This document shows, one piece after another, positions 11,497 through 63,516 of a DNA stretch of 64,000 bases. The stretch is from Clostridia bacterium (lineage in GTDB: Bacteria > Bacillota > Clostridia > Oscillospirales > CAG-272). Both the position numbers and the translations under genes were made by a program. Positions within the stretch are counted from its first letter, which is position 1. Each line of letters begins with the position of its first letter. The stretch covers positions 6,443 through 70,442 of the forward strand of contig JAFSAM010000077.1 in NCBI GenBank assembly GCA_017441005.1. The letters are read 5' to 3'. Under the pieces are notes generated by a model. That model was given only the letters and a program-made list of their open reading frames with translations, searched no databases and had not been told where the DNA came from.

Positions 11497-11501
11497 TAAT
11501 T

Positions 11502-12480: not shown

Positions 12481-12518
12481 AAAAAAGGCACACTTGATGT
12501 AATAAAATCAAGTGTGCC
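12481..12518 (-). terminator. intrinsic terminator (A/T tracts on both sides)
   Basis: 12-bp stem GGCACACTTGAT/ATCAAGTGTGCC, with A6 upstream and TTTAATT downstream. Confidence 0.75.
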
Positions 12519-12534
12519 TTTAATTATGTATAGG

Positions 12535-13389: not shown

Positions 13390-13420
13390 TAAGGGTTCCT
13401 CCGAGACGGATTTTTTTTGG

Positions 13421-14632: not shown

Positions 14633-14819
14633 TAATTTTACCCTCTTGTCAAGAAGAAAATCGGGAAATCATTACCTGAATAGTAACACATAAAATTTAA
14701 AAAGTAAATAGGGACAAAAAAATTTTTGAAAAAACACGATTGGAAGATTTTATGAATAAATATATTGATATTTGATCAATATGTATGATATAATAAAATG
14801 TGGAAACGGAGGGAGCAGA

Positions 14820-16817: not shown

Positions 16818-16831
16818 TACAAGCATAAAAA

Positions 16832-16861
16832 ATGACCGTACTGAATTGTACGGTCATTTTC
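16832..16861. terminator. bidirectional intrinsic terminator between glgB and the dehydrogenase gene
   Basis: Stem ATGACCGTAC/GTACGGTCAT flanked by an A tract and a T tract. Confidence 0.75.
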
Positions 16862-16883
16862 ATTGTTTTCTTGATTTATCGGC

Positions 16884-26688: not shown

Positions 26689-27426
26689 GTGAAACGCACA
26701 TATTCGGTTTTATTTATCGGAAACAGCTACACATATTATAACGATATGCCGACCGAGATTTTTAAAAGGATAGCGGAGTCGGGGAGGGTTACTGTAGACG
26801 TTACAGCCATTACAAAGGGAGCACACACGCTCTCAAGGTTTGCAGATCCGTATGACAGTTACGGAGCATCGGTCGAGCGGGAATTGACGGGGGATAAAAA
26901 ATACGATTACGTGATATTGCAGGAGCAGAGCTGTCGTCCCATTACCGAGAATGCAGGCGATTTTTACTCTGCGGTAAGAAATCTTGCCGAAAGAATAAGA
27001 CATACGGGGGCGGAGCCTATCTTGTATGCAACCTGGGGTAGGGAAAAAGACAGCCCGACGTTAGAGCAGTATGGCTGGACAAACGAAAGTATGACCTGGA
27101 AATTGGCGGCGGCATATCGTGCGATCGGCGGCGAATTGGATATCCCCGTCGCATACGTCGGACTTGCCTTTTATGACGTTTACAGCAACCGTAATGACAT
27201 AGAGCTTTACGCCGCCGATAGGACCCATCCGTCATACAGCGGAAGCTATCTTGCCGCGGTGTCTTTGTTTTCAAAGATATTCGGCGTAGACCCCACAGAT
27301 ATCAAATTTACGGGAGGTTTATCTGCCGACGATGCCGAAGTGCTTTGCCATGCGGCAAAGAATGCGATTTGTTCTGATCCCGCTATCCCGAAGGAGTACA
27401 TAACTTCGTCAATAGGGATAAAATGA
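26689..27426 (+). CDS. SGNH/GDSL-like hydrolase family protein
   Basis: 'VLFIGNSYTYYNDMP' block I-like motif. GTG start 6 nt after AAGGAGAAAA. Confidence 0.65.
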   Translation: MKRTYSVLFIGNSYTYYNDMPTEIFKRIAESGRVTVDVTAITKGAHTLSRFADPYDSYGASVERELTGDKKYDYVILQEQSCRPITENAGDFYSAVRNLAERIRHTGAEPILYATWGREKDSPTLEQYGWTNESMTWKLAAAYRAIGGELDIPVAYVGLAFYDVYSNRNDIELYAADRTHPSYSGSYLAAVSLFSKIFGVDPTDIKFTGGLSADDAEVLCHAAKNAICSDPAIPKEYITSSIGIK

Positions 27427-27945: not shown

Positions 27946-29214
27946 ATGAAAAGAATACTGTTCAGTTTACTTGTTCTTGTACTTGTTGTATCTTTTGCTT
28001 CTTGCGGGAATAATGACGGTGTCGGTGATGAAGTAAATGAGACTCATTACGAAACAGAAACAAACGATGAAACAAAAGTTTCCGAAGAGACGGAAGCAGA
28101 GACTGAGATAACTATTGGCGGAAAAAATATAAATGATTATTATAAAGTAGTTCAGTTTGATCTGCCCGAAGGTTCTTTCAGGGATGCTGTCGTTGCGCAT
28201 ATGAGAGAGCAGGCATCAATAGAATGGGTTTGCTCGGAAACTTTTGGAATAACCGAAGATTTTAACAGCTGGGGAATACACCTTCAATTTAAAAAAGGCG
28301 AGAAATACGTAGGAATTCCTTATGCCGATACAAAGGTAAGCGCAGAGCAGTTCAGACAGGCTTTGGTTGACGGAACGTATACTTGCCAATCCGATAAATG
28401 GAAGGACGTATACGGAGTTCAATGTGTTTCTTCGATATACAATTCTATTCAGCAAGTAGCCCCGAACGTTTACGGAACTACTTATAATATGACTCCGGGA
28501 ATAGTGTCGTTTGAATTCAGAGGCATTATATGCGGACAGTACGAGGTACCAAAGTCGCTGAGAAAAACTCAGGAGATCATTGATACAAATTCCGGTGACG
28601 TAATGTGCGAAGCTTATGCACAGCTCAAAAAGGGAGACGTTATCATAATGCAGGACCTTGACAGAGGTGCTGCGCACACCCGATTGGTTGTTGAGGATGC
28701 CGTTGTTTTGAGAAATGCGGCGGGTAAAATCAACAAGGGAAGAAGCTATGTTCAGACAATAGAGCAGACGAACTCTTTCGATGCACAGCGTACGGACGGT
28801 GTAAAAACCACATGGTATGTGGATCATAAATATTCTTTTGATAAACTTATTCAAACCAATTACGTGCCGATAACTTTTGAAATATACAATAAAGACAGAT
28901 CAGAGTGTGAGGCTCCTTATTTGCTTCTTGACAAAGAGATCACCCCAAAGCAGATAGAAAAGGGAGCAATAGGAAGCAATGTTGAATCTAATTTCCCCAT
29001 AAGATACGTTTATCTTGACTTGTATAGCAAGGACGGAAAGCTTGTAAAAAGGGAAATGAAGTTTGATATGGCGGATGAGTTTAAGGTAATTCTCCGCAAA
29101 CCTTCGATAGCTCTTGCTTCAAATCTCGAAAAAGGCGAATATACGTTCGTTTTGACCGCGGGCATTGCAAGAGGAAGTGCAGAGCTTGCAAGAGTAGATT
29201 TTACGGTAGAGTAA
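27946..29214 (+). CDS. P-family lipoprotein, paralog 1 (uncharacterised; conserved Cys/His pair)
   Basis: Lipobox 'VVSFASCG' and an E/T-rich linker. Conserved blocks 'SIEWVCSETF', 'KGEKYVGIPY', 'GVQCVSSIYNSIQQ', 'AAHTRLVVE', 'SYVQTIEQTNSFD' and 'TTWYVDHKYSF'. Confidence 0.8.
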   Translation: MKRILFSLLVLVLVVSFASCGNNDGVGDEVNETHYETETNDETKVSEETEAETEITIGGKNINDYYKVVQFDLPEGSFRDAVVAHMREQASIEWVCSETFGITEDFNSWGIHLQFKKGEKYVGIPYADTKVSAEQFRQALVDGTYTCQSDKWKDVYGVQCVSSIYNSIQQVAPNVYGTTYNMTPGIVSFEFRGIICGQYEVPKSLRKTQEIIDTNSGDVMCEAYAQLKKGDVIIMQDLDRGAAHTRLVVEDAVVLRNAAGKINKGRSYVQTIEQTNSFDAQRTDGVKTTWYVDHKYSFDKLIQTNYVPITFEIYNKDRSECEAPYLLLDKEITPKQIEKGAIGSNVESNFPIRYVYLDLYSKDGKLVKREMKFDMADEFKVILRKPSIALASNLEKGEYTFVLTAGIARGSAELARVDFTVE

Positions 29215-43688: not shown

Positions 43689-44477
43689 TTATATGTTTTT
43701 TAGCTTTTTTCTCATTTTTATCGGAGAAACACCAAAGCAGTTCTTAAATACTTTTGAAAAATATCCGTAATTATCATATCCCAGCCAATATGCTATTTCT
43801 TGTAAGGTCATTTCGTTATTGGTAAGCATATTTTGGGCAAGGAGCATCTTCTGTTCGTTAATGTATTCGGTAAGAGTCAATCCCATCTCTTTTTTGAAAA
43901 TGCGTGTAGTGTGTTCGCGTGAAAGATGTATTGCTTCACTGACTGTGTTCAAGGAGATGGGTTTTGTAATATTGTCATTTATGTATTTTATGGCGTTCAG
44001 TGCGTGGCGGTTTTTTGTCTTATATTTCAAGGTGTCAAAGAACTCTGTCAAAATACAGTTAAATAGATTTGGCAATATTTCAATTATTTTTAAGTTTTCG
44101 CCCTTGTCATCTATTGTGCTGTCATCAACGTTATAATAGGTGTAAGGGTAAGAAGCAAGCAGATTGCGGATGGTTGAGTTTACGGCATTCCTCATAAGAA
44201 GAACTGAAGATATCTCACTTCCCGTCCTGGGATGATAGTTAAATATAACGTAATGTGCGGGAGAGTCGCTTTTGTAACGCTCTCTTTTGGTTCCCGGAGG
44301 AAGAATGAGAGCATCGTTTTCACCCAAAACTATTTCTTTGCCGTTTACTTTGTAACGGACATTACCGCTGAAAACAAAGGTAAGATGGTAAAAATCTATA
44401 ACCGAAAACGGAATGCTTCCGTGACAGGGTCCGTTATAATTATAAAAGCAAATGAATCTATCGATTTTATATGTCAT
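43689..44477 (-). CDS. AraC family transcriptional regulator (divergent from P-family paralog 2)
   Basis: MTYKIDRFICFYNY..., with a C-terminal HTH 'LSREHTTRIFKKEMGLT' and 'GYDNYGYFSKVFKNCFGVSP'. A GGAGAA RBS lies 7 nt before the ATG at 44477. The track start 44852 would overlap the neighbouring gene. Confidence 0.8.
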   Translation of the reverse strand: MTYKIDRFICFYNYNGPCHGSIPFSVIDFYHLTFVFSGNVRYKVNGKEIVLGENDALILPPGTKRERYKSDSPAHYVIFNYHPRTGSEISSVLLMRNAVNSTIRNLLASYPYTYYNVDDSTIDDKGENLKIIEILPNLFNCILTEFFDTLKYKTKNRHALNAIKYINDNITKPISLNTVSEAIHLSREHTTRIFKKEMGLTLTEYINEQKMLLAQNMLTNNEMTLQEIAYWLGYDNYGYFSKVFKNCFGVSPIKMRKKLKNI

Positions 44478-44661
44478 ATTTTGGTTCTCCATATCAATAT
44501 AGTGTATAAAATAATGTTTATTAGAGCAATATTGTTTATTGAAAAATATCGCTTGATATCTTATTATATAGTAAAGACCAATTAAAGTCAATGGCAAAAT
44601 AGAGTATAAAAGTTTGTACCGCGGAAAACTGCTTTTTTGCTTTTGACGGGAAGGTGATAAA

Positions 44662-45936
44662 ATGAAAAAAATACTTGTTTTACTTTTGGTTGTATTGCTC
44701 TTTGTATGCGTGGGTTGCGCAAAGGAAGAGCCTGAGAACAACAATAAGGAGGAGACTGATATGTCAGAGACAAATAATGAAGTTATTGACACTGAAAATG
44801 AAACTGAAGCCGAAAACCAGCCTAAAAATGAAAACGGAATATTAACCATCAATCCCGATGATTATTATAAGTGCGTTGTGTTTGAGCTTCCGAAAGAGAA
44901 TTTCAGAGACGCAGCCGTAAATCACATGAGAGCGCAGTCATCTATCGAGTGGGTGTGCAGTAATGATTTTGCAGTATCGGAAAAGTTTAACAGCTGGGGG
45001 ATTAATCTCGAATGGAAGAAAGGCGAAAAATATATGGGAATTCCATATTCCGATACAAAAGTAAGCCTTGAAGAATTCAAGACTTATATGGTAGACGGAA
45101 CGTTTACTTGCAATTCGAGTAAGTGGAAAGAAGTTCCGGGAAATGCATGTATGTCTTCAATTTTTAATTCCATACAGCAGTTTGAACCTAATGTTGCGGG
45201 GGTATCTAATCAGCTTATGCCCAGTTATGATACTTTCCAAGCTAAAATACTGGGAGAATACAATGTTCCCAAAGGGGTTAAGACGACAAAAGAAATAATA
45301 AGTGCCAATAATTTAAATGATATTTACGAAGCGTTTGCAAGCGGAATAGAAGGCGACATTGTAATTTTCAAAGATGATATTAAAGATGCATCACATATTC
45401 GTATGCTTGTCGAACCTGCAACGGTTGTAAGAAATGCGGCAGGAAGGATCAACCCTTCAAGAAGCTATGTTAAGACTATCGAGCAAACCAATGCGTTTGA
45501 CACGCAGAGAAAAGACGGAGTAAAAACCACGTGGTTTGTAGATCACGTTTATACGTTTGATGCTCTTATTGAAAAGGAATATATTCCGATAACACTTGAG
45601 ATTTACAATAAAGATAAATCCGAGTGCGAGATTCCGTATTTGTATCTTGACGAGGAGATTACCCCTGCAATATTGGCAAAGGGAACAGCGATAAGTACAA
45701 TAAAATCCAATTTCCCCATTCGTTTTATGAAGGCTGAATTGCTTGATAAAACAGGAAATTGTGTGAACAGCGTTGTGGTACACGATCTCCACGATACCAG
45801 AAGCATAAATTTGAGAAATCAGATGACAAAGCTGTTTAACGGACTTGAAAACGGTGATTATACTTTTGTGCTTACCTCGGGTATTGCAATTGGAAATGCT
45901 GAACTTGCAAGGGTAGATTTTACCTACAATAAGTGA
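44662..45936 (+). CDS. P-family lipoprotein, paralog 2
   Basis: Lipobox 'LFVCVGCA' and an acidic linker. Blocks 'SIEWVCSNDF', 'KGEKYMGIPY', 'GNACMSSIFNSIQQ', 'ASHIRMLVE', 'SYVKTIEQTNAFD' and 'TTWFVDHVYTF'. Confidence 0.8.
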   Translation: MKKILVLLLVVLLFVCVGCAKEEPENNNKEETDMSETNNEVIDTENETEAENQPKNENGILTINPDDYYKCVVFELPKENFRDAAVNHMRAQSSIEWVCSNDFAVSEKFNSWGINLEWKKGEKYMGIPYSDTKVSLEEFKTYMVDGTFTCNSSKWKEVPGNACMSSIFNSIQQFEPNVAGVSNQLMPSYDTFQAKILGEYNVPKGVKTTKEIISANNLNDIYEAFASGIEGDIVIFKDDIKDASHIRMLVEPATVVRNAAGRINPSRSYVKTIEQTNAFDTQRKDGVKTTWFVDHVYTFDALIEKEYIPITLEIYNKDKSECEIPYLYLDEEITPAILAKGTAISTIKSNFPIRFMKAELLDKTGNCVNSVVVHDLHDTRSINLRNQMTKLFNGLENGDYTFVLTSGIAIGNAELARVDFTYNK

Positions 45937-47367: not shown

Positions 47368-47420
47368 GGACACATCATTTTCGGATAAACTCCGAAATGA
47401 TGTGTCCTTAGTTTTTATTG
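47368..47420 (+). terminator. H-family conserved hairpin, copy H3
   Basis: GGACACATCAT (47368-78), loop 'tttcggataaactccgaa', ATGATGTGTCC (47397-407). It lies 6 nt after the RAYT stop codon. Confidence 0.85.
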
Positions 47421-47501
47421 AAGTTTGTGCGATAAAACTATATAAAAGTTATAAAACTTTGAAAAAGCTTTTTACTCTTCTTGCTTTTATCGACTGCATT
47501 C

Positions 47502-48293
47502 TTATGCTTCAAGCTCTTTTAATGCGGCTTCAAGCGTTTGTTTGCTTTCAAGCACGATTCCGCCTACCTCAAGAACGACAAGCTTGTCGTATCCGTAATT
47601 TTCAAGCGAACGGCAGACCTCGACCAAATCAACCAAACCGTCCTCGCATACCAATGAATGATGCATTTTTCCTGCGGCTGAATTCTGGCTCAAATGAACG
47701 TTGTAGAGGGGCAATTTAAGCTCATCGAGGTTAGGTAAGCCAATGTTGTGAGATGAATAGTGCGCAAAATCTATAGTTGCGCCAAAATAGGGGTTGTTTT
47801 CGGTGAGGTGTGCAAAGCGATTGAGATCATCTACAGTAAAAACGAGCTCATAGGGGCGTTTCTCCATATTTTCAATACCGACACGAACCTTCTTTTCTTT
47901 TGCATATTGCGCAATATCGGTAACGATATCCATCAAGGTTTCCCAATGCTCGTTTGGGTCTTCTTCGTTTGTTGTAAGTCTTCCGGGATGGAAGGTAACG
48001 GTACCGAGACCGTGTCTTGCCGAAAGATCGATCGAGTGCTTCAGATTGGCAATCGAGGATGCACGGCGTTCAAGATCGGACGAGGATATGTTGTTGACTC
48101 CGTAGGGCGCGTGTAAAGAGAGTGTCAACCCCCGTGATACTGCATAGGCGAGGATTTCATCCTGCAGGCTTTCATCATCGGGGAGGTTGCTCACCGCAAT
48201 TTCCATATATGAAAAACCGAGTTCTAATGCCTCGTCTATCCAATTTTTGTCTCCGTTTTTAAATTTACCGCAATCGGTACATGCTATTTTCAT
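47502..48293 (-). CDS. sugar phosphate isomerase/epimerase (xylose isomerase-like TIM barrel)
   Basis: Motifs 'LSLHAPY', 'VTFHPG', 'VGIENMEKR' and 'TIDFAHY' are typical of this fold. Confidence 0.8.
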   Translation of the reverse strand: MKIACTDCGKFKNGDKNWIDEALELGFSYMEIAVSNLPDDESLQDEILAYAVSRGLTLSLHAPYGVNNISSSDLERRASSIANLKHSIDLSARHGLGTVTFHPGRLTTNEEDPNEHWETLMDIVTDIAQYAKEKKVRVGIENMEKRPYELVFTVDDLNRFAHLTENNPYFGATIDFAHYSSHNIGLPNLDELKLPLYNVHLSQNSAAGKMHHSLVCEDGLVDLVEVCRSLENYGYDKLVVLEVGGIVLESKQTLEAALKELEA

Positions 48294-48462
48294 TTATAAT
48301 CACCTTTCTGGAAAGATTATGTTTTTTAATATCCTTTTGTCATATTGAGGTACAAGAGGTCGAGCTTCCGCTTGTAACCGGGAAAGTTGCCGTCTGGTTT
48401 GGCCGATGGTGGCGCATTAATTTCTGCGGTGTGTCTAAGCTTTTGTATATGGCATTATCGGT

Positions 48463-49551
48463 TTATACCGTAAATTCAAAATGCTCAAGGTCAACGCCGC
48501 CTCGTGCAATCGCAATTCGGTAATTATATGTATAAGAGCCCTTTTCCAAAGAGGCAAGATCAAGATCATTATTCATATCGCATAAGTTAAGACCATAGAC
48601 ATTCGTGAAATTGTTTTTCAGAGATGATCTGACAAGCTTTCCGTCTGCATCTTTAATTGTTGCATAGGCGTAGTTCAAGGGAAACGTGGATGTTATTTTG
48701 CCGTTTAGTCCGTTCTTTATCGTGTCGGGGTTATTTTTTTCTTCAAGGATAATATATGCATCCTTCGGTTCATCGCCGTTGGTGTAGATTTCAAGGGTTA
48801 TGGGCATAAAATGCTTTTCGTAAAGTTTTTCAAAGGTGTACTTTCTGCCAACAAACCAGGTTGTGTTAATGTCTACGGTTTTGTCCCAGGCATTAGTCTG
48901 CTCGATTACAGCAACAGTGCTTTTTTCCCCGTCAATAGTGCCGTTTTCGTTATATACGACCTCGGCATCGGAGTATACCATTCTCACGTGTCCCGCTCCG
49001 GGTTTGCAGTAGTACAAAATGTCTGCTGACTTCAGCATTCCGTATGCTTCAAAAATTTTTGTTTTGGGGTTGAAATCCCAAATGTTGAATGATGAATAAT
49101 CGTCTCCGTATTGTTCGAAGGGGATTTTTATATCGTTGGGGAACTTAAAAATTCCGGGATACCATTTTTGCGGTTTTGTTCCGCCGATACCGCCGTTGCT
49201 GATAAGCTGTTGCAGAGCCATTGAAATAGAAGACGAACAATGGTTTCCCACGATTTCATCGAAATAAAAAACGTCGTTGTTGTCAAAAACACCGTTGTCA
49301 ACAAATTGCTCGAACTGATCGAGTGTAGCCTTCATTCCGGAGTAGGATACACCGTAATAGGTCTTGCCTTTTTCATAGGTAAGATCTACGTTTGTTCGTG
49401 GACCTTTTTTGATTATGGTAAATGTCTGCTTTGGTGTCCATTTAATCTGCGACATTTTTATCATATAATCGAGAACAATCTGTCTGTAATCTCCCCGGGG
49501 AGCAGGAATCTTTGCGATTTTACAATTATCGGAAACTATAGCATTATTCAT
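48463..49551 (-). CDS. P-family paralog 3, without signal peptide (predicted cytoplasmic)
   Basis: MNNAIVSDNCKI... The blocks 'QIKWTPKQTF', 'GNHCSSSISMALQQ', 'AGHVRMVYS', 'VIEQTNAWD' and 'TTWFVGRKYTF' align with paralogs 1, 2 and 4. An AAGGGAGAG RBS lies 7 nt before the ATG at 49551. Confidence 0.75.
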   Translation of the reverse strand: MNNAIVSDNCKIAKIPAPRGDYRQIVLDYMIKMSQIKWTPKQTFTIIKKGPRTNVDLTYEKGKTYYGVSYSGMKATLDQFEQFVDNGVFDNNDVFYFDEIVGNHCSSSISMALQQLISNGGIGGTKPQKWYPGIFKFPNDIKIPFEQYGDDYSSFNIWDFNPKTKIFEAYGMLKSADILYYCKPGAGHVRMVYSDAEVVYNENGTIDGEKSTVAVIEQTNAWDKTVDINTTWFVGRKYTFEKLYEKHFMPITLEIYTNGDEPKDAYIILEEKNNPDTIKNGLNGKITSTFPLNYAYATIKDADGKLVRSSLKNNFTNVYGLNLCDMNNDLDLASLEKGSYTYNYRIAIARGGVDLEHFEFTV

Positions 49552-49727
49552 AGGTGTACTCTCCCTTTTTGTGGTTTTGGTTGTATATGTTTCAATTGGA
49601 TTATAGCACAAATGCGGTTAGTTGTAAAGTGATGATTATAGTTTTTCATTTGTAGAATTTTATCAATATAAGTCACTTTTTTAAAATATTATTTTGTGAG
49701 CTGTTTTGTTAACTTATAAAAAAATAT

Positions 49728-49778
49728 AGACACATCATCCTTGAAAACTCCCAAATGATGTGTCCAACTTTTTTATTG
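49728..49778 (+). terminator. H-family conserved hairpin, copy H4 (start of a ~95-bp repeat shared with H5)
   Basis: AGACACATCAT (49728-38), loop, ATGATGTGTCC (49755-65), then AACTTTTTT. Confidence 0.85.
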
Positions 49779-53790: not shown

Positions 53791-54876
53791 TTAAATGTCT
53801 TTCGACTGACCTTGATCTATCCAGATTCCGGTGCCGTCGGACATAATTGCGAATTGATAGGCTTCTACAAGGCTTTGAATAGTGCGGCTTAAAGCTTTTC
53901 GTTCTATAAAAAGCTCGTAGGGAGGATTCTTGAGTTCCTCCAAAATATCTTTTTGTCTCAGGTGGTGTTTGCTGTCGGATTTCGTTTTTAAAATTGAATA
54001 TACAAAGAGTGGCAAAAGACTTTTTTGTGAATTGCCTTTTTTGGGACGGTAGAGCTCGTCGAGCTCTTCTTCAGTCATCTGTTCTTCTCGTTCAATTTGA
54101 AGGCGTCTGGTGTTGCTGACAGTTTCTCGTGATATTCCATAACGGTTTAAGAGCATTGCGGCGACAAGCTGTTTTGCCTCTGTGAAAACTACTGCATACG
54201 GGGCATTTAGGAGCATCAAGCGATATAGCCTTCTGGAACGAATGATCACATCGTATGCGCAAATTTTTCCGCCGATACGAGCTTGTGCCTGTGAATAGAG
54301 GTCAGAGACGGATTTGTGATAGTATTCTTTTTCATCGTCGGATACTGAAACATTTAGGTAGTCTGACAAAAAAGAACGTTCAAAATCATCGAGAGGTGCT
54401 CCTTTCGAGAGGTTTCCGGCAATTACCTTGACGTATTCGGATACGTCCATTCTGTCTTCTATATCTTGAAGCCTTTCTATGTCAAATTTATCATACGAAA
54501 AAGGTCGAAGATAATCGTTCCAAAACTTAAAAAACGTATCGTCATTAACTTGTTTTTTGAAATCTTCAGTTGATTGAATATCGAGCAGATCCCCAAGCTT
54601 TTCCGCAAAAAAACGAATAATTGCAACATGAGCCTGCGCTTCGTCTATGAAGTATTCATAGTCTGCAAGATTCCAATTTACCAAGCAACGGTAGCTGTCA
54701 TTTTCGTCTGTATGCAGGTCTTCGCTGAAGCCTTGTCCCGGGGCGTCATAGTGCCAACCGGGAATATATAAAACTCCGTCTTCGTCGGTACGCTCAAACA
54801 TTAGAGTAATGAAATCTTTAAGCTCTAATTCGGGATCATCAAAGGAATAAAATGTTTTGTTTGCTATGTTTGACAT
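53791..54876 (-). CDS. retron-associated protein of unknown function (candidate effector), acidic N-terminal ~280 aa + C-terminal wHTH-like region
   Basis: MSNIANKTFYSFDDPELELKDF... AAAGGAGA RBS 6 nt before the ATG at 54876. C-terminal 'LRQKDILEELKNPPYELFIERKALSRTIQSLVEAYQFAIMSDGTGIWI' resembles an HTH_11-type winged helix. No nuclease, ATPase, TIR or TM motif was recognised. Confidence 0.7.
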   Translation of the reverse strand: MSNIANKTFYSFDDPELELKDFITLMFERTDEDGVLYIPGWHYDAPGQGFSEDLHTDENDSYRCLVNWNLADYEYFIDEAQAHVAIIRFFAEKLGDLLDIQSTEDFKKQVNDDTFFKFWNDYLRPFSYDKFDIERLQDIEDRMDVSEYVKVIAGNLSKGAPLDDFERSFLSDYLNVSVSDDEKEYYHKSVSDLYSQAQARIGGKICAYDVIIRSRRLYRLMLLNAPYAVVFTEAKQLVAAMLLNRYGISRETVSNTRRLQIEREEQMTEEELDELYRPKKGNSQKSLLPLFVYSILKTKSDSKHHLRQKDILEELKNPPYELFIERKALSRTIQSLVEAYQFAIMSDGTGIWIDQGQSKDI

Positions 54877-54951
54877 ATTGTTTCTCCTTTTCATATATTA
54901 CAAAAAGAGTATATCAACTTAGTTGCACCATATTAGGTACAACCACTTTTT

Positions 54952-54981
54952 ATTATATAGGATTCGATAATAAAAAGTCAA
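54952..54981 (-). promoter_or_regulatory. candidate sigma-A promoter for the retron-associated gene
   Basis: On the minus strand: TTGACT (54981-54976, overlapping the RT stop codon), 18 nt, TATAAT (54957-54952). An imperfect palindrome GTTGCACC-ATATTA-GGTACAAC at 54922-54943 follows it. Confidence 0.5.
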
Positions 54982-56030
54982 CTATTACAATGGGTATCAA
55001 AAGATTTAGACAAATTTTCTTTAGCTGCTTGAAACCATTTATTTTCAGGTTCAATTTGTAAAATGTAGTTAACTTTTCCGATAAGGTGACATTTATATCG
55101 AGCGGTATCCCATTTTCCATTTTCGAAAAAGTCATTCTTTTTTCCGTATTTCATACTGTCTTCAAGACCGAATTTTAATGCGTAATAAACATCTTGGCGA
55201 AGTGTTTTTTTATAGTCTGACGGAATAGACACTTTTTTGTTAACGCATAATCCTGTTACTGTTTGGCGCGATGAAAAGAATATGTATTTTGTTTTTTTCT
55301 TATTTACCTGAAATCCCCATCGGTTGAGCATATCTTCAATTTTGTAAGAAAGAACAACAAGAGGATAGTCGGCGGAAAAGGTTAAATCATCACAGTACCG
55401 TGTGTAGACTATGCCGCGTTCGTTACACCAAAATCCTATGTGCTCGTCAAAAGATTTCATCACAAGATTGGATAATGCGGGAGATGTAGGAGCGCCTTGT
55501 GGCAATACACCGTCTTTTGTGCAAAGGGAAGTAAGAATAACCCCGCATTGAGTTGGGAAAAGAGTGGAGGGGAAAGCTGAAGATAGAACTTGATGAAAGG
55601 TAATAGAACTAAAAAAGTCGGAAATATCCATTTTTAATAAATAAAGATGATTGATATGAGGAGCAGCATTATCTTTAAGGTTTTTTCCTTTTTTATATGC
55701 CATAGCATAAGGCGATGTTTCTGCTTTTGATATGATGTTTTGAAGTATTTTCTTTTGGACTTTTTTTAGTTTTCCGTTGGGGGAATGAATGATCCTGAAG
55801 CCGTTGCTTCTTTTGGGGATTCGTATTTCTTTATAACAAGAGTCTGCTTTCTTTGATAAAGCAAAGAGTTCTCCTGTTGTTGTGCCGAGAGTGTCGGCAA
55901 GAGATTGCAGTTCTTTTGATATGCCTTTATTGCTTTTTTGTTTTTTTGAAGAATGTGAATTGGCAAATATTCCAATGAGTTTTTTTACAAAGACTTGAAT
56001 GTTTCTGATAATGTTTGATGCTTTTTTCAT
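54978..56030 (-). CDS. retron-type reverse transcriptase
   Basis: 'IRIPKRSNGFRIIHSP', 'NAAPH' (retron NAxxH), 'LPQGAPTSPALSN', 'RYCDDLTFS' (YxDD) and 'RQTVTGLCVN' (retron VTG motif). A GGAGGA RBS precedes the ATG at 56030. Confidence 0.9.
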   Translation of the reverse strand: MKKASNIIRNIQVFVKKLIGIFANSHSSKKQKSNKGISKELQSLADTLGTTTGELFALSKKADSCYKEIRIPKRSNGFRIIHSPNGKLKKVQKKILQNIISKAETSPYAMAYKKGKNLKDNAAPHINHLYLLKMDISDFFSSITFHQVLSSAFPSTLFPTQCGVILTSLCTKDGVLPQGAPTSPALSNLVMKSFDEHIGFWCNERGIVYTRYCDDLTFSADYPLVVLSYKIEDMLNRWGFQVNKKKTKYIFFSSRQTVTGLCVNKKVSIPSDYKKTLRQDVYYALKFGLEDSMKYGKKNDFFENGKWDTARYKCHLIGKVNYILQIEPENKWFQAAKENLSKSFDTHCNS

Positions 56031-56383: not shown

Positions 56384-58237
56384 TTAATTAGTTGCAAGTT
56401 TTCTTTGCTTACTTTCTTTCCTTAAAAAAAGTAGGTTTCCTATTGAGCATTTTGCGTTGCCGTAAAGGTGGGGGAGCGAGTCTGCGCCTACTGTGGAGAG
56501 AACGTCAAATCTAACATATCTTGCTTGTGTGTTTTCAAATGTAACGACGGTTTCACCGCCAAAAGTGCGAAAAATACCGTCTGCTTTTTTTTCGTACTTT
56601 GTTCCGTCAATGCTCGTATATATGGCAAAGGCGGTTGGGAGAGTTGCTGTGTAATCATCTTCACGCCATTTTGTGCGAAGTTCGGGTTGGGTTTTCGGAG
56701 GCTTTTCAACCGGTCTTGGATAGTACCCAATTGCACTGACCGTATGCAATTGTTGCATATCGATTACAATTGATGCTTTGGTGTTCTTTCCTTCCCATAC
56801 GTTGTATACGTCTCCTTCAATGGCGGCAGAGGCATCTTCGCCTGTGAGTATATCAACTGCTGTTGCGTTGCTTAGGTCTATGGCGGATAGTTTTGATTCG
56901 GTATATTTGTCAAATTTACGTCCCGTCCATACGGGCATCGACCAAGTTCTTTTGCCCTCACCGTCTACAAAACGCAGATAGAAATACCGTGCGGTATCTG
57001 ACTGTATTTCAAAATCAAAACTTGAAGAAATATTTGTTGTTTTCAGCAAAGTCTTTCCACCGTCGGATATAACGGCACATTCAACGGGAACTGTCATTTC
57101 ATCTTTTGTAAAATATGAAAGTTCAACGTGGAATCGGTAGGTGTTTGCATAATCAAGGTCGGCGGGAGCGGCTTTTCCATTTACGGTATATCGAAGTTTT
57201 ACGTTTCCGCTTTCGGTTGCATAAAACCTATTATTGCGGAGAGCATCGATAAATGCTTCTCGACTCTTTTCTCGAGCGAGTAAAACCGTTTTCGCTCTCA
57301 TAAAACCGTATCCTCTTTCAGGGCCGTGGGAGTCTGTCGATGCGACTGAACTTACACGAAAGCCGCTATCCAGTGCAAGTGAATAGTTAAATTCATGCAT
57401 AAGATTTTCCCCGATAGCTCTGCCGTTAATCGTTTCGATTCCTCGGACAGCATGTATCATTTCGGGAGTATTGTTTTTATGAAAACAGAAATTCCAGATT
57501 CCCTTATGTCCGATTCCCACTGTACAAGGATGGGCAAAAATTGCGATGGGGGCGGGAGAAGTGCTTATACATTCAAAGAACGGTTTCCAAGAATCTGCAG
57601 AAATATATCCATCTGTGTTGAAAGTAACGATTTCTCCGGAATTTTTGTGAAGAACACCAAAACGGTCGTTTTCCAAAACCGTTACCTCCGATTCTGCTCC
57701 CGGAAGCATAATCACAACGTTCGGCTCTGCTTTTTCGATTTCTACAAAATTGCGGAAGAACTCTGTATCGTTGAGTACGATTGCATGGTCGGACATAACG
57801 CAGAAATCAAGAAGACCTTCGTTTTTGATTTGTTTGATAAAATCACGCTGGAACTCTGACGTGCGGTTGATAAATTCTTCGTGATTATGAATTTTGGTAG
57901 TGTGATTATGAAGGTCGCCTATATAGTAGTTTAATTTATCGTCAGAACTTGCTTTTTTGTTCTCGGTTACCGTTACGAAGCAGGTGTATTGAACACCGCC
58001 CATCGTTGCACTTACGGTTGCATTTCCAACCTTTTTCAATATAAGCAGAACACCGTTGTTGAAGCACATCGGTTCATTACCAGAGAAGGAGTGAAGTGAG
58101 ACTGCATCTGAATCGGATTCCCATTTTATATCTGCTTTGGCCAACTCATTATGTTTTTCGCTGTCAAAACCTATGTGGAGCGGTAACACATCTCCTACAA
58201 ACGATGTTATGTGATTTTGGGATAATGAAACAGTCAT
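56384..58237 (-). CDS. PHP/CehA-like metallo-hydrolase with N-terminal Ig-like region and C-terminal discoidin (F5/8 type C)-like domain
   Basis: MTVSLSQNHITSF... after a TAGGAGGA RBS at the ATG 58237. Motifs 'GDLHNHT' and 'ASTDSHG'. The C-terminal ~150 aa are discoidin-like. The last 12 codons (RKESKQRKLATN) are encoded by a dispersed repeat module. Confidence 0.7.
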   Translation of the reverse strand: MTVSLSQNHITSFVGDVLPLHIGFDSEKHNELAKADIKWESDSDAVSLHSFSGNEPMCFNNGVLLILKKVGNATVSATMGGVQYTCFVTVTENKKASSDDKLNYYIGDLHNHTTKIHNHEEFINRTSEFQRDFIKQIKNEGLLDFCVMSDHAIVLNDTEFFRNFVEIEKAEPNVVIMLPGAESEVTVLENDRFGVLHKNSGEIVTFNTDGYISADSWKPFFECISTSPAPIAIFAHPCTVGIGHKGIWNFCFHKNNTPEMIHAVRGIETINGRAIGENLMHEFNYSLALDSGFRVSSVASTDSHGPERGYGFMRAKTVLLAREKSREAFIDALRNNRFYATESGNVKLRYTVNGKAAPADLDYANTYRFHVELSYFTKDEMTVPVECAVISDGGKTLLKTTNISSSFDFEIQSDTARYFYLRFVDGEGKRTWSMPVWTGRKFDKYTESKLSAIDLSNATAVDILTGEDASAAIEGDVYNVWEGKNTKASIVIDMQQLHTVSAIGYYPRPVEKPPKTQPELRTKWREDDYTATLPTAFAIYTSIDGTKYEKKADGIFRTFGGETVVTFENTQARYVRFDVLSTVGADSLPHLYGNAKCSIGNLLFLRKESKQRKLATN

Positions 58238-58354
58238 AAAAATCCTCCTATGCAAATCTGTCTGTATTTTATCACAATGTATGGTTTTTGTAAAGGGAAA
58301 AAGATAGGGCAAGCACGCTGTTGTCGAGTATGTAATAACACTTTGCAAGATAAC

Positions 58355-58462
58355 ATTTTTGCGTTGTTTTCCTTTTAAACCGAGGCTTTTCATCAACTTT
58401 TGAACTGTCTTGTGGTTAAGAACATAGCCTTTGTATGATATCAATCGTATAAACGTATACAA
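58355..58462 (-). pseudogene. IS3-family transposase (OrfB) remnant
   Basis: 'SYKGYVLNHKTVQKLMKSLGLKGKQRK' matches the conserved 'G..VNHKRV.RLM.ELGL..R.R' segment of IS3-family OrfB. Only about 36 codons remain, and they are read in frame into the long track ORF 56384-58462. Confidence 0.5.
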
Positions 58463-61306: not shown

Positions 61307-62092
61307 TTATTTTTTCATTAATTCGTTTTTCAGGTTTATCGGTGGAATGCCGAAAAAATCTTTAAATACCTTTGAAAAATAACCGTAGTTTTCATATCCC
61401 AAGCACAATGCTATTTCGGTTAATGACATAGCATCGTTCGTAAGCATATTTTTTGCGAGTGTGACTTTTTGCTTGTTGATAAACTCCGAAACCGTCATAC
61501 CGAGTTCTCTTTTGAAAAGCTTTGCAGTATATTCCTTTGTAACGTGCAGAAATTGGCTTATGTCAGAGAGCGACAAGGATTGTGTTATGTTGTCATTGAT
61601 ATATTTAATTGCATTTAAGACGTGAATGTTTTTTGTTGAATAATTCATAGAGTCGAACAGCTCGGCAAGCACGCAGTTAAAAAGATTCGGCAGGATTGTG
61701 TTGACTTTGCTGTTGCCATATGAGGGGGATGTCAGATGGTCAGCTGCTCTGTAATACGTGTACGGATATACCTCGAGCAGTTTTCTTATGGTTTGATTGA
61801 CTGCATTTTTGAAAAACAGATTTGATGGTATGTCGTTTCCTTTTGTGGTTGTGTAATTAAATATAACGTAGTGAGCTAATCCTTCGCTGGGAAACCTTTT
61901 TCTGACAGTTCCTGGTACCAGAAGCATAGCATCATTTGGGTGAAGAACAACCTCTTCCCCATTTACTATATAAGTTATTGTTCCTTCCAAAACAAAGGTG
62001 AGATGATAAAAGTTTATTTTTGCGGTTTCAATCTTTTTGTGTTTGTATCCCTTGTGGTTGCAAAAATAAGAAAAATTTTTTACGGTATACAC
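61307..62092 (-). CDS. AraC family transcriptional regulator (paralog of 43689-44477; divergent from P-family paralog 4)
   Basis: Aligns along its length with the 43689 regulator: 'INFYHLTFVLEGTITYIVNGEEVVL', 'AHYVIFNY', 'GYENYGYFSKVFKDFFGIPP'. GTG start at 62092, 8 nt after GGAGAA, by analogy with the paralog. The track start is 62179. Confidence 0.75.
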   Translation of the reverse strand: MYTVKNFSYFCNHKGYKHKKIETAKINFYHLTFVLEGTITYIVNGEEVVLHPNDAMLLVPGTVRKRFPSEGLAHYVIFNYTTTKGNDIPSNLFFKNAVNQTIRKLLEVYPYTYYRAADHLTSPSYGNSKVNTILPNLFNCVLAELFDSMNYSTKNIHVLNAIKYINDNITQSLSLSDISQFLHVTKEYTAKLFKRELGMTVSEFINKQKVTLAKNMLTNDAMSLTEIALCLGYENYGYFSKVFKDFFGIPPINLKNELMKK

Positions 62093-62271
62093 GATACGGT
62101 TTCTCCACAGATTAATATAGTATAAAAAACTGTAACCAACAGAATAATCTGGTTTATTGAAAAAGAGCTTTTCATACACTATTATATAGTAAAGATAAAA
62201 ATATTGTCAAGTATAAAATAATGAATGCCTTTTGAGTTAAACGTAAGTTTTTATAGCGGGAGGGGAATTAA

Positions 62272-63516
62272 ATGAAAAAGGTGTATTTTCTTTTATTGAT
62301 GCTTATATTTTTGTTTCTTGTTGTATCTTGTGGCAAAAAAGAAGAAAATTCAAAGGAGGAGATTACGGTGAAGGAGGAAATAAAAGAAACGGTTTTGGAG
62401 ACTGATAAAGAGGAAATCGATCTTCCTGTTGATCCCGATGATTATTTTAAATTGGTGACGTTTGAGCTTCCCGATGATTTCAGAAAAGCCGCGGTTGAGT
62501 ATATGCGTAAGCAGTCAAGTATAGCGTGGACTCCCGAAAAAACCTTTAAAACAGGAAGGCAAAACGAGAATTGGGGCTTTGAGCTGACATACGAAGAGGG
62601 AAAGGTTTATACAGGTCTTTTGTATTCCACAAGAAAGGCATCTGTTGACGAATTTCAGCTTACTCTCGCAAAAAATGGAGGCAAATACACCTCGGAAAAG
62701 TATGATTATAGCTTTCCCTTGGGGGTAGAATGCAACACGTCCATTACACATTCATTGCAGCAGTTTACAAATGCGGTGACAGGCAAAGCAGAAACACTTA
62801 TGCCCAGTTATGCGGACTTGTTCGGTGGCGTAGTAGTGGGCGAGTATACTGTTCCCGATGGGGTGCGCCAAACAGCAAAGATTATATCGGCAAATACTCC
62901 CGAGGTGATGTATCAGGCATATTCGCAGTTGGATGTGGGTGATATTATAATCACGAAAGATGAGGATAAAAAAGTAAACCATTTGAGAATGATTGTGGAA
63001 AAGCCGGTTGTTGTTACGACAGCGTCAGGTAAGATCAATCCAAACAGAAGCTATGTGGTTACTATAGAGCAGACAGATACTTTTGATAAAACAAGAACAG
63101 ACGGTGTAAATACAACGTGGTGGGTAGACCATCAATATACATTATCAAAGCTTCTTGAAAAGAACTACGTTCCCGTTTCGGTTGAGGCATACAGAACCGG
63201 AGTGGGGGTTGTTCCGTATATAGGGCTTGACACCGAGATTACGGCAGGAATACTCGAAAAAGGCACTCTTACGGGTACAATAACATCAAATTATCCTATC
63301 AGATTTATTCATATCAATCTTTATAAAAAAGACGGTACCCTTGTGAGCAACGTGGTCTATAACGGCGAATTTGATACGAGAAAAGTCAATTTGAGAAAAT
63401 ATGCTTCCGATATATTTACCGACGGTATGACCGAGGGAGAATATACTCTTGAAGTATTGGCGGGGGTAAGCCGCGGTTATGCGGAAATAGCGAAAGTAAA
63501 CTTTATATACGGGTAA
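62272..63516 (+). CDS. P-family lipoprotein, paralog 4
   Basis: Lipobox 'FLVVSCG'. Blocks 'SIAWTPEKTF', 'GVECNTSITHSLQQ', 'VNHLRMIVE', 'SYVVTIEQTDTFD' and 'TTWWVDHQYTL'. Confidence 0.8.
   Translation: MKKVYFLLLMLIFLFLVVSCGKKEENSKEEITVKEEIKETVLETDKEEIDLPVDPDDYFKLVTFELPDDFRKAAVEYMRKQSSIAWTPEKTFKTGRQNENWGFELTYEEGKVYTGLLYSTRKASVDEFQLTLAKNGGKYTSEKYDYSFPLGVECNTSITHSLQQFTNAVTGKAETLMPSYADLFGGVVVGEYTVPDGVRQTAKIISANTPEVMYQAYSQLDVGDIIITKDEDKKVNHLRMIVEKPVVVTTASGKINPNRSYVVTIEQTDTFDKTRTDGVNTTWWVDHQYTLSKLLEKNYVPVSVEAYRTGVGVVPYIGLDTEITAGILEKGTLTGTITSNYPIRFIHINLYKKDGTLVSNVVYNGEFDTRKVNLRKYASDIFTDGMTEGEYTLEVLAGVSRGYAEIAKVNFIYG

What the first reader, a model, noticed from the sequence alone, without database searches (positions are those of the whole stretch)
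43689..45936. Four-member paralogous family of uncharacterised proteins with a conserved Cys/His pair, repeatedly paired with AraC regulators
Paralogs lie at 27946-29214, 44662-45936, 62272-63516 and 48463-49551. The first three are lipoproteins with acidic linkers. All four share the blocks 'SI(E/A)W', 'KG(E/K).Y.G(I/L).Y', 'G..C..S(I)...(L/I)QQ', 'H.R(L/M).V', 'IEQT(N/D).(F/W)D', 'TTW(Y/F/W)V...Y(S/T)(F/L)' and a C-terminal beta-rich domain. An invariant Cys followed about 95-100 residues later by an invariant His suggests a papain-like or NlpC/P60-like hydrolase, but I cannot place it in a named family. Two paralogs are transcribed divergently from closely related AraC genes (43689-44477 and 61307-62092). 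The family is interleaved with esterases, Gfo/Idh/MocA oxidoreductases and TIM-barrel isomerases. This layout suggests substrate-inducible glycan or cell-surface processing modules.
Basis: partly seen in the sequence, partly recalled or inferred. Interest (0 to 1): 0.6.

Follow-up and report, generated by a model that had tools for sequence, protein, structure and literature searches.

The report
AraC-paired CHAP-like cysteine hydrolase family
The four look-alike genes are real, but they are only part of a set of about 42 copies in this small gut-bacterium genome of an unnamed, very divergent branch of the CHAP/NlpC-P60 cysteine hydrolases; many copies come as a cassette with their own AraC-type switch, and the substrate is unknown.

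Summary
Four paralogs (32-53% identical) lie at the stated coordinates. Three are lipoproteins with acidic linkers and one has no leader. Two are divergently paired with related AraC genes. "Four-member" is a large underestimate, because the 2.1-Mb genome has 42 copies. The Cys-to-His spacing is 82-84 residues, not 95-100.

Pfam and NCBIfam name nothing. Cys163, His245, Glu/Asp274 and Asp232 of a "GD" motif are each kept in at least 95% of 318 domain instances. Profile-profile comparison matches CHAP (probability 92%, P=7e-7) and NlpC/P60 (P=2e-4), with clean controls. Domain-only Foldseek hits are mostly NlpC/P60 but weak. A C-terminal Ig-like domain follows the catalytic domain.

AraC genes are strongly enriched beside the family (12 of 29 within 3 kb; P~2e-6). 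Five cassettes share one promoter layout, and other MAGs carry rows of cassettes. Some copies sit in sugar operons (rhamnose, GH123/NagA, TIM-Gfo-Gfo), but the rhamnose placement is seen in only 2 of 6 species.

Best reading: inducible surface and cytosolic cysteine amidohydrolases tied to carbohydrate use. It is a new variant of a known enzyme kind.

The parts
43689..44477 (-). AraC/XylS-family regulator (262 aa), divergent partner of P0002
   Evidence: HTH_18 1.5e-19, HTH_AraC, AraC_binding and Cupin_2 in the N-half. It is 53% identical to the AraC at 61307-62092.
44478..44661 (.). Divergent control region. Family-gene promoter (+): -35 at 44539-44544, -10 at 44562-44567. Face-to-face AraC promoter (-): -35 at 44591-44586, -10 at 44568-44563. 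Repeated AATATWGT boxes at 44496-44503 and 44528-44535. RBS GGGAAGG at 44648.
   Evidence: These are the two best promoter-like sites in the scan. The block is conserved in five cassettes (alignment A4). The operator role of the boxes is inferred.
44662..45936 (+). P0002, a 424-aa lipoprotein. Signal peptide and lipobox 44662-44718 (lipidated Cys19 at 44716-44718); acidic disordered linker 44719-44832; CHAP/NlpC-P60-like catalytic domain 44833-45597; Ig/FN3-like beta-sandwich 45598-45933.
   Evidence: Translation. AF2 model with pLDDT 89.9, low only at residues 22-52. Domain-only model with pLDDT 92.8. Whole-chain Foldseek hits are Ig/FN3/CBM-like for the C-terminal domain.
45148..45150 (+). 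Codon of the predicted nucleophile Cys163, the first residue of helix 163-171
   Evidence: Invariant in 50 of 50 homologs and in 96% of 318 domains. Lies on the CHAP and NlpC/P60 Cys in the relaxed hhalign. DSSP. Codon.
45355..45357 (+). Codon of Asp232 in the 'GD' motif, just before the strand at 233-238 that precedes the His strand
   Evidence: Conserved in 100% of 314 instances. The GD motif is the stated signature of the NlpC/P60-CHAP-amidase cluster (PMC10318531). It aligns to the GD of both families.
45394..45402 (+). Codons of the predicted general base His245 (45394-45396) and the family-specific Arg247 (45400-45402), in the 'H.R' motif on strand 243-249
   Evidence: His is 95% and Arg 86% conserved. 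His aligns to the catalytic His of CHAP and NlpC/P60 in the confident hhalign core.
45481..45483 (+). Codon of the predicted third triad residue Glu274, in 'IEQTN' on strand 269-275
   Evidence: Glu or Asp in 95% of instances. It aligns to the CHAP 'vEgN' Glu.
45046..45048 (+). Codon of Tyr129 in 'Y.G.PY', a candidate oxyanion-hole Tyr 34 residues before the Cys
   Evidence: 97% conserved. It falls on the NlpC/P60 'ylGtPY' in the relaxed hhalign. The role of the equivalent Tyr is described in PMC3573020. Inferred.
27946..29214 (+). P0001, a 422-aa lipoprotein paralog (Cys160/His244/Glu273). An AraC gene (25834-26625) and a DUF4886 gene (26689-27426) lie upstream on the same strand.
61307..62092 (-). 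AraC/XylS-family regulator (261 aa), divergent partner of P0003
   Evidence: HTH_18 9.4e-18 and Cupin_2.
62093..62271 (.). Control region of the second cassette, with the same layout: -35 TTGAAA at 62157-62162, -10 TATTAT at 62180-62185, boxes at 62114-62121 and 62200-62207.
62272..63516 (+). P0003, a 414-aa lipoprotein paralog (Cys154/His237/Glu266)
48463..49551 (-). P0004, a leaderless (cytoplasmic) paralog of 362 aa from the ATG at 49551 (Cys105/His188/Glu217). It lies 170 bp upstream of, and is co-oriented with, the xylose-isomerase-like TIM-barrel gene at 47502-48293.
   Evidence: In the tree it is sister to the array member C40:31489-32610.

Best explanation
The genes encode an unnamed, highly divergent family of the CHAP/NlpC-P60 (papain-like) superfamily of cysteine amidohydrolases.

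Each protein has a catalytic domain of about 255 residues. Cys163 sits at the start of a helix. His245 sits on the next-but-one strand after a 'GD' motif. Glu274 sits on the following strand. An Ig-like beta-sandwich follows the catalytic domain.

The likely chemistry is the usual one for this fold. The Cys-His pair, oriented by Glu, attacks an amide (or possibly ester) carbonyl, forms a thioester intermediate, and is then released by water. The family-specific invariant Arg247, two residues after His on the same strand, and Arg82 probably hold an anionic group of the substrate.

Most copies are tethered to the outside of the membrane as lipoproteins. About a dozen have no leader and are cytosolic. 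A few are parts of 1,000-1,500-aa proteins.

One clade, which includes P0002 and P0003, multiplies as a cassette: an AraC-type sensor gene, a shared spacer with face-to-face promoters, and the hydrolase gene. Each enzyme is therefore probably switched on by its own small-molecule inducer.

Because copies recur in or beside sugar-catabolic genes, the enzymes most likely cut acyl or peptide bonds in sugar-bearing conjugates (glycopeptide, muropeptide or acyl-glycan type) as part of nutrient acquisition.

Shown: family membership signals, residue conservation, copy number and AraC linkage. Inferred: catalysis, the roles of the Arg residues, induction by AraC, and the substrate class.
For: - Real paralogs, with 42 ORFs in the genome.
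- Catalytic residues: invariant in 50 homologs. In 318 instances Cys is 96%, His 95%, Glu/Asp 95% and Asp232 100% conserved. In this genome's 42 copies, leaderless ones included, Cys, His and Asp232 are kept in all and Glu/Asp274 in 40.
- Secondary structure puts Cys at a helix N-terminus and His and Glu on consecutive strands.
- hhalign against CHAP gives probability 91.9%, P=6.9e-7, score 45.7, against a shuffle maximum of 13.7. Against NlpC/P60 it gives P=1.8e-4, score 32.3, against controls of at most 16.4.
- NLPC_P60 is the top recurrent weak Pfam hit, with Amidase_6 and TGL also appearing.
- Foldseek on the domain alone returns NlpC/P60 folds for 9 of the top 12 hits.
- The GD motif is the signature of this cluster (PMC10318531).
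- Fusions to SLH, dockerin and BspA-type LRR domains indicate surface display.
- AraC: 12 of 29 AraC genes lie within 3 kb of a family gene, against 2.4 expected, P=1.6e-6. Rows of cassettes occur in two other MAGs. The promoter block is shared. AraC identity tracks partner identity (rho 0.64).
- Sugar context: the rhaB-rhaA-rhaD-FAM-fucO, GH123-FAM-NagA-like and TIM-Gfo-Gfo-SDR-FAM clusters. Gfo and TIM genes are modestly enriched (P=0.03 and 0.014).
Against: - No member reaches any curated family threshold.
- Foldseek hits are individually non-significant (best E=0.038, TM at most 0.45).
- I could not read model coordinates, so the 3-D geometry of the triad is unverified.
- No activity or expression data were found. 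The one candidate run was uninformative.
- The sugar link is modest statistically. The rhamnose-operon placement is found in only 2 of 6 species with the operon. Many flanking genes are housekeeping. The largest array (C40) has no AraC gene and no sugar gene inside it.
- The closest precedent from the rumen, RflaF_05439, showed no detectable protease activity (PMC3573020).
Confidence: 0.6

Rival explanations
1. The proteins are conventional peptidoglycan hydrolases, as most CHAP and NlpC/P60 enzymes are. They would act either on the cell's own wall (autolysins) or on the walls or wall debris of other gut bacteria. The many paralogs would match different stem-peptide and cross-bridge chemotypes, and the cytosolic copies would finish off imported muropeptides.
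For: - The closest families by profile and by fold are peptidoglycan amidases and endopeptidases.
- The genome has only one canonical NlpC/P60 gene and no CHAP gene.
- Cytosolic precedents exist in the superfamily, such as glutathionylspermidine amidase (PMC10318531).
- Invariant Arg residues would suit D-Glu or mDAP carboxylates (inference).
- A VanY gene neighbours the C73 cassette, and amino-sugar genes (GH123, NagA-like) flank the C24 copy.
Against: - No SH3b, LysM, PG_binding or choline-binding module was found in any copy or fusion. The partners are an Ig-like domain, dockerin, SLH and LRR.
- Forty-two copies with individual AraC sensors are not what housekeeping autolysins look like.
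- Dockerin fusions point to a cellulosome-type, plant-fibre context.
Confidence: 0.25
2. The proteins are acyltransferases or transglutaminase-like cross-linkers, like LRAT or Tgl, rather than hydrolases. They would use the same Cys-His chemistry to move an acyl group onto a surface or glycan acceptor.
For: - The superfamily includes LRAT acyltransferases and the Tgl transglutaminase.
- Tgl (4p8i) appears among the Foldseek hits, and PF20085 TGL appears once among the weak Pfam hits.
Against: - The best profile matches are to hydrolytic CHAP and NlpC/P60 domains.
- The Cys-then-His order is not the permuted LRAT or C92 arrangement.
- No acyl-donor biosynthesis genes were seen alongside.
Confidence: 0.07
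3. The proteins are non-catalytic surface binding proteins or variable surface antigens that merely retain an old enzyme scaffold. They would act as adhesins or solute or glycan receptors.
For: - Lipoprotein anchoring, an Ig-like C-terminal domain, a large multi-copy family and fusions to adhesion or anchoring modules.
- Non-catalytic NlpC/P60 proteins exist: RipD is among the Foldseek hits, and DUF1175 is described as inactive.
Against: - The triad and the GD motif are kept in at least 95% of 318 diverged domains, and in this genome's copies almost without exception (Cys, His and Asp232 in all 42; Glu/Asp274 in 40). Pseudoenzymes usually lose these residues.
- About a dozen copies are cytosolic, which makes no sense for adhesins or antigens.
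- No ABC transporter genes were found beside the copies examined.
Confidence: 0.06

Closest known systems
CHAP domain (Pfam PF05257; MEROPS C51): peptidoglycan amidases and endopeptidases, and glutathionylspermidine/trypanothione amidase
   Same: - Collinear Cys, then 'GD', then His, then Glu(-x-Asn) motifs.
- Best profile-profile match: probability 91.9%, P=6.9e-7.
- Trypanothione synthetase-amidase (2vpm) is among the fold hits.
- CHAP also has both extracellular and cytosolic members.
   Different: - No CHAP hit at any HMMER threshold.
- The domain is about 255 residues, against about 80-110 for CHAP. It has an N-terminal helix and beta-hairpin extension, about 70 residues between the Cys helix and the GD strand, and a hairpin of about 20 residues inserted between the His and Glu strands.
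- Arg at His+2.
- A C-terminal Ig-like domain in place of SH3b or LysM.
- Multi-copy, with AraC cassettes.
NlpC/P60 (Pfam PF00877; MEROPS C40) DL-endopeptidases such as RipA/RipB, MAP1204, LytE/CwlO and SagA
   Same: - The motifs 'y.G.PY', then Cys at a helix start, then 'L.pGD(L/I)(V/I)ff', then His.
- hhalign P=1.8e-4.
- The most recurrent weak Pfam hit.
- Nine of the top 12 Foldseek hits.
- RipA and RipB use a Cys-His-Glu triad (my own knowledge).
   Different: - Below every curated cut-off.
- Fold-search E of at least 0.038.
- The third residue lies 29 residues after His, instead of about 10-12.
- No peptidoglycan-binding modules.
RflaF_05439 NlpC/P60-like modules of Ruminococcus flavefaciens (PDB 4EYZ per the 2023 classification, written '4EZY' in the original paper; classed with Tse1 in DUF2272)
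   Same: - A surface or cellulosome-linked (dockerin) papain-like module from a rumen Clostridia bacterium.
- Superfamily membership is invisible to ordinary sequence searches.
- A Tyr about 35-38 residues before the Cys, and a long Cys-to-His spacing.
- Substrate unknown (PMC3573020).
- Some members of our family are also dockerin-fused.
   Different: - Not detectably homologous by sequence, and not among the top 50 fold hits.
- Its triad is Cys-His-Gln.
- It has a tandem duplicated module with an X-dockerin, not a lipoprotein with an Ig-like domain.
- It is single-copy.
Polysaccharide-utilisation-type 'sensor plus surface enzyme' modules (for example Bacteroides PULs with hybrid two-component sensors)
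   Same: A functional analogy only. A dedicated ligand sensor is encoded next to a surface-tethered lipoprotein enzyme, the unit is multiplied many times per genome, and copies sit within sugar-catabolic clusters.
   Different: - A Gram-positive host.
- An AraC cytosolic sensor rather than a hybrid two-component system or ECF/anti-sigma pair.
- No SusC/SusD.
- The enzyme is a cysteine amidohydrolase-type fold, not a glycoside hydrolase.
- No experimental support.

Membership tests
NlpC/P60-CHAP superfamily (papain-like clan CA, 'cluster II') | Nucleophile Cys at the N-terminus of an alpha-helix | tested here: met
   Cys163 is the first residue of helix 163-171 in both AF2 models. It is conserved in 96% of 318 domains.
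NlpC/P60-CHAP superfamily (papain-like clan CA, 'cluster II') | Catalytic His on a beta-strand downstream of the Cys (canonical, non-permuted order) | tested here: met
   His245 lies on strand 243-249. It is 95% conserved and aligns with the catalytic His of CHAP and NlpC/P60 in the confident hhalign core.
NlpC/P60-CHAP superfamily (papain-like clan CA, 'cluster II') | Third polar residue on the next strand, oriented toward His | tested here: inconclusive
   Glu274 lies on strand 269-275. Glu or Asp is present in 95% of instances, and it aligns to the CHAP Glu.
NlpC/P60-CHAP superfamily (papain-like clan CA, 'cluster II') | 'GD' motif on strand beta1 preceding the His strand | tested here: met
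   G231-D232 sit just before strand 233-238. Asp is 100% and Gly 84% conserved. The feature is as defined in PMC10318531.
NlpC/P60-CHAP superfamily (papain-like clan CA, 'cluster II') | Statistically supported profile similarity to bona fide members | tested here: met
   CHAP: P=6.9e-7, probability 92%. NlpC/P60: P=1.8e-4, probability 49%. Controls score no more than 16.4, against 45.7 and 32.3. For scale, NlpC/P60 against CHAP scores 54.3 in the same test.
NlpC/P60-CHAP superfamily (papain-like clan CA, 'cluster II') | Fold similarity to solved members | tested here: inconclusive
   Nine of the top 12 domain-only Foldseek hits are NlpC/P60 domains, but the best E is 0.038, probabilities are below 0.5 and TM-scores are at most 0.45.
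Pfam PF05257 (CHAP) or PF00877 (NLPC_P60) as curated families | HMM score above the family's gathering threshold | tested here: not met
   There is no hit at E of 1 or better for the four window proteins, and none in 8 distant members. The best NLPC_P60 E-value among 50 members is 0.004, below the cut-off.
Bacterial lipoproteins (Lgt/Lsp substrates) | N-terminal signal peptide ending in a lipobox with an invariant Cys | tested here: met
   Met for P0001, P0002 and P0003. Cys19 is invariant in 50 of 50 homologs. Twenty-six of the 42 genome copies have a lipobox. Not met for P0004 and about 12 other leaderless copies.
AraC/XylS transcription regulators (the partner genes) | C-terminal double HTH (HTH_18/HTH_AraC) with an N-terminal cupin-type ligand domain | tested here: met
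   for 43689-44477 and 61307-62092. Regulation of the adjacent gene was not tested.
Cysteine amidohydrolase (enzymatic activity) | Cys-dependent hydrolysis of an amide or ester substrate | not testable with these tools
   This requires protein expression and assays.

The most novel reading that the evidence does not exclude
The AraC-plus-lipoprotein cassettes are a Gram-positive counterpart of polysaccharide-utilisation loci. A new enzymatic branch of the CHAP/NlpC-P60 fold has been turned from cell-wall work to cutting non-peptidoglycan acyl or peptide bonds in dietary or microbial glycoconjugates. Each cassette would be tuned to a different inducer and substrate, and matched cytosolic paralogs would finish the job after uptake. 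That would define a new substrate class for this fold and a new type of inducible catabolic battery in uncultured ruminant-gut Clostridia.
Probability: 0.3. Interest if true: 0.8.

Novelty: new variant of a known kind. Interest (0 to 1): 0.55.

Why it matters
About 2% of the genes of this small-genome ruminant-gut bacterium belong to one enzyme family that no curated database names. The wider family has about 1,500 clusters at 50% identity in metagenomes.

Placing it in the CHAP/NlpC-P60 superfamily gives a testable chemistry: a Cys-His-Glu amidohydrolase. The repeated AraC cassette gives a handle for finding inducers and therefore substrates.

If the substrates turn out not to be peptidoglycan, this would extend the known reach of the fold. 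It would also reveal how fibre-associated Clostridia organise inducible surface enzymes.

If the substrates are peptidoglycan chemotypes, the family would point to large-scale scavenging of bacterial cell walls in the gut.

Tried and rejected
- Whole-chain Foldseek against the PDB and BFVD returned only Ig/FN3/CBM-like matches to the C-terminal domain. A domain-only model was needed.
- HMMER profile searches of PDB sequences with A1 and A3 found nothing relevant.
- Pfam scans of 8 distant members, including proteins of 1,000-1,500 aa, named no domain at all.
- The transglutaminase core (PF01841) gave no hhalign signal. The test is insensitive, however, because NlpC/P60 against that family also gives none.
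- Expression: no clear RNA run holds the gene. The one run of unknown kind (X14) gave thin, even coverage of genes and spacers and says nothing about transcription.
- A specific rhamnose role: the family gene follows rhaD only in G000 and G011 among 6 species with the operon, so I do not infer a rhamnose-specific function.
- The goat-gut 'PCP' cell-wall enzyme (PMC5146660) has a different architecture, with PG-binding and SH3b domains, and is not this family.
- Literature searches for NlpC plus Gfo plus AraC found nothing.
- I considered a solute-binding-protein role and rejected it. No ABC transporter genes lie nearby, and the triad is conserved.
Full report
**1. The observation.**
ORFs lie at the four stated places. 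P0001-3 begin with a signal peptide that ends in a lipobox Cys. That Cys is invariant in 50 homologs. It is followed by an acidic stretch that AlphaFold leaves disordered (residues 22-52). P0004 has no leader.

The genes at 43689-44477 and 61307-62092 are AraC/XylS regulators with cupin-type N-halves. They are 53% identical to each other and are divergent from P0002 and P0003. The neighbours include GDSL-like and SASA esterases, two Gfo/Idh/MocA oxidoreductases, a xylose-isomerase-like TIM barrel and a 3-hydroxyacyl-CoA dehydrogenase.

Two details need correcting. The Cys-to-His spacing is 82-84 residues in all four copies, not 95-100. The family is far larger than four members.

**2. Size and spread of the family.**
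A profile of the Cys/His domain finds 45 matches in the window's own 2.1-Mb genome. My own ORF calling gives 42 genes.
- Thirty-four are close members, including an 18-gene same-strand array on contig C40.
- Eight are distant members, four of them inside proteins of 1,026-1,496 aa.
- About 26 copies have a lipobox.
- About 12 start directly at the conserved core, with their own ribosome-binding site just after the previous gene's stop codon. They are truly leaderless.

A tree shows that leaderless forms arose at least five times. P0004 is sister to an array member.

Among 41 related genomes, all 12 of the same genus have the family, with 3-42 matches each. None of 29 other genera in the same family or order do, at E of 1e-10 or better. 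An exhaustive profile search of 1.84 billion representatives nevertheless finds 1,484 clusters, 442 of them at E of 1e-30 or better. Many of these are embedded in proteins of 800-2,100 aa.

Named hosts are all uncultured Eubacteriales, Clostridia or 'Ruminococcus' MAGs from faeces, buffalo caecum and rumen. The locus is present in sheep, goat and faecal metagenomes.

**3. What the protein is.**
Pfam and NCBIfam name nothing beyond the signal peptide, even in the distant members. The full-length AF2 model is confident (pLDDT 89.9). Whole-chain Foldseek sees only the C-terminal Ig/FN3-like sandwich, with hits to C5a-peptidase Fn domains, DUF3244 and a porphyran-binding CBM.

A domain-only model (residues 58-312, pLDDT 92.8) gives NlpC/P60 domains as 9 of the top 12 PDB hits: MAP1204, RipB, RipD, MAP1272c, RipA and Tse1. 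CHAP-type trypanothione amidase and Tgl appear lower down. All of these hits are individually weak (best E 0.038).

I therefore ran direct profile-profile tests against alignments of bona fide domains taken from related genomes.
- Against NlpC/P60: probability 49%, P=1.8e-4, score 32.3. The family's 'L.KGD(I/V)(I/V)...H.R' falls on 'L.pGDLvFF...HVgIY'. In the relaxed alignment, 'G..C.SS' falls on 'fDCSG' and 'Y.G.PY' on 'ylGtPY'.
- Against CHAP: probability 91.9%, P=6.9e-7, score 45.7. This match covers GD, His and the 'IEQTN'/'vEgN' Glu motif. The Cys is aligned in the relaxed mode.
- Controls: reversed targets, 30-40 column shuffles and an unrelated AraC alignment score no more than 16.4.
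- For scale, NlpC/P60 against CHAP scores 54.3.
- The transglutaminase core gave no signal, but that test is insensitive.

Independently, a permissive Pfam scan of 50 members makes NLPC_P60 the most recurrent family out of 24,736 (8 members, best E 0.004). Amidase_6 and TGL also appear.

**4. Catalytic residues.**
Across 318 domain instances (243 proteins from the searches plus this genome's copies), conservation is as follows:
- Cys163: 96%
- His245: 95%
- Glu/Asp274: 95%
- Asp232 of the 'GD' motif: 100%
- Tyr129: 97%
- Arg247: 86%

All 42 copies in this genome keep Cys, His and Asp232, leaderless and long forms included. Forty keep Glu/Asp274.

DSSP puts Cys163 at the first position of a helix, His245 on strand 243-249 and Glu274 on strand 269-275. 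The 2023 classification of papain-like enzymes names the GD motif on strand beta1 as the signature of the NlpC/P60-CHAP-amidase cluster (PMC10318531). The R. flavefaciens study describes the oxyanion-hole Tyr that precedes the Cys (PMC3573020).

I could not read model coordinates, so the triad geometry is inferred rather than measured.

**5. The AraC cassette.**
In this genome, 7 family genes have a divergent AraC gene 90-350 bp upstream. All 7 fall in one clade. Genome-wide, 12 of 29 AraC genes lie within 3 kb of a family gene, against 2.4 expected (P=1.6e-6). Independent contigs show the same arrangement: three cassettes in a JGI metagenome contig and five in a row in another MAG.

Five cassettes (two in the window, three on C32) share a conserved spacer (alignment A4). 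In the P0002 spacer the two best promoter-like sites are the family-gene promoter (TTGAAA-17-TATTAT, 44539-44567) and a face-to-face AraC promoter (TTGACT-17-TATAAT, 44591-44563). Their -10 hexamers overlap. Repeated AATATWGT boxes abut the family-gene -35.

AraC identity tracks partner identity (rho 0.64). The ligand-binding halves are more diverged than the DNA-binding halves (42% against 56%).

I infer that the cassette duplicates as a unit and that each AraC activates its neighbour in response to its own ligand. This was not tested.

**6. Functional context.**
Some copies sit inside tight operon-like clusters:
- C15: AraC, then rhamnulokinase, L-rhamnose isomerase, a class II aldolase, the family gene and an Fe-alcohol dehydrogenase.
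- C24: AraC, divergent from GH123, the family gene, an unknown gene and a NagA-like amidohydrolase.
- C78: AraC, divergent from TIM, Gfo, Gfo, an SDR, the family gene and an unknown gene.
- C14: a leaderless copy 21 bp upstream of a TIM-barrel gene, much as P0004 sits upstream of the TIM barrel in the window.

Gfo/Idh/MocA and TIM-barrel genes are modestly enriched near the family (P=0.03 and 0.014). The link is labile, however. Only 2 of 6 species with the rha operon have the family gene in it. Other flanks are housekeeping genes.

Fusion partners elsewhere are SLH, type I dockerin and BspA-type LRR domains, which are surface or cellulosome display modules. No peptidoglycan-binding module was seen in any copy.

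**7. Reading.**
The family is a divergent CHAP/NlpC-P60-type cysteine amidohydrolase with a C-terminal Ig-like domain. It is deployed both on the cell surface and in the cytosol. In one clade it is controlled cassette by cassette by AraC sensors.

The substrate is unknown. I lean toward acyl or peptide bonds in sugar-bearing conjugates used as nutrients. Classical peptidoglycan hydrolysis, including scavenging of other bacteria's walls, is the main rival.

The closest precedent in habitat and in its unresolved status is the dockerin-linked NlpC/P60-like RflaF_05439, whose activity is also unknown.

**8. Earlier notes.**
After reaching these conclusions I found that earlier agents of this scan had examined the C40 array in another window. 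They also called it NlpC/P60-like or CHAP-like, with interleaved lipoprotein and leaderless forms. This agrees with my results but is not independent evidence.

What this report adds:
- the genome-wide count and genus distribution;
- the controlled CHAP and NlpC/P60 tests;
- the AraC cassette and its shared promoter;
- the sugar-operon embedding and its lability;
- the fusion partners.

Noticed in passing
G000 C78:6463-7650; C40:59027-63740; C37:9331-10443; C52:13388-14593; C73:19940-20902 (outside the window): A second unnamed multi-copy family: proteins of about 320-400 aa with no signal peptide and no Pfam hit, 28-39% identical to one another, including a 4-gene array. Two copies directly flank CHAP-like family genes (the C78 operon and a C73 AraC cassette).
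   Followed up: partly
window 44539-44591 and 62157-62207: The family-gene promoter and the AraC promoter face each other with overlapping -10 hexamers, so RNA polymerase can probably occupy only one at a time. This layout, conserved in five cassettes, looks like a built-in switch.
   Followed up: partly
whole genome G000: A 2.1-Mb genome carries 29 AraC-type genes, 22 Gfo/Idh/MocA genes and 12 xylose-isomerase-like TIM-barrel genes. That is a very heavy investment in keto-sugar-type chemistry for its size.
   Followed up: no
window 47378-49744: In run X14 one low-depth contig joins 47378 to 49744 with six other letters between. A related strain therefore seems to lack the two-gene unit made of the TIM barrel (47502-48293) and leaderless P0004 (48463-49551). 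This suggests the unit is an indel between strains (table 5c).
   Followed up: no
G000 C21:254-3367, C21:19018-23508, C76:703-3783, C82:58997-62173 (L003, L004, L007, L010): Four proteins of 1,026-1,496 aa carry one to three copies of the family domain in their C-terminal halves. The N-terminal ~630-655 residues preceding the family domain in three of them match no Pfam family at all.
   Followed up: no
L098 (GCA_052833585.1, JAZMIV010000023.1) 4753-17263: Five AraC(-)/family(+) cassettes stand head to tail between a Dus gene and further family genes. The syntenic Dus...HprK locus in another species (L099) has family genes but no AraC. This locus seems to be the hot spot where cassettes multiply.
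   Followed up: partly
window 54978-56030 and 53791-54894: There is a reverse transcriptase gene (RVT_1, 1e-24) with a downstream 367-aa gene that has no Pfam hit. Earlier notes of this scan describe this as a retron.
   Followed up: no
window 5859-7469 (-) and 56384-58462 (-): A 536-aa ORF has no Pfam hit. A 692-aa ORF combines an N-terminal HTH_21-like fragment with C-terminal F5/8 type C (discoidin) domains.
   Followed up: no
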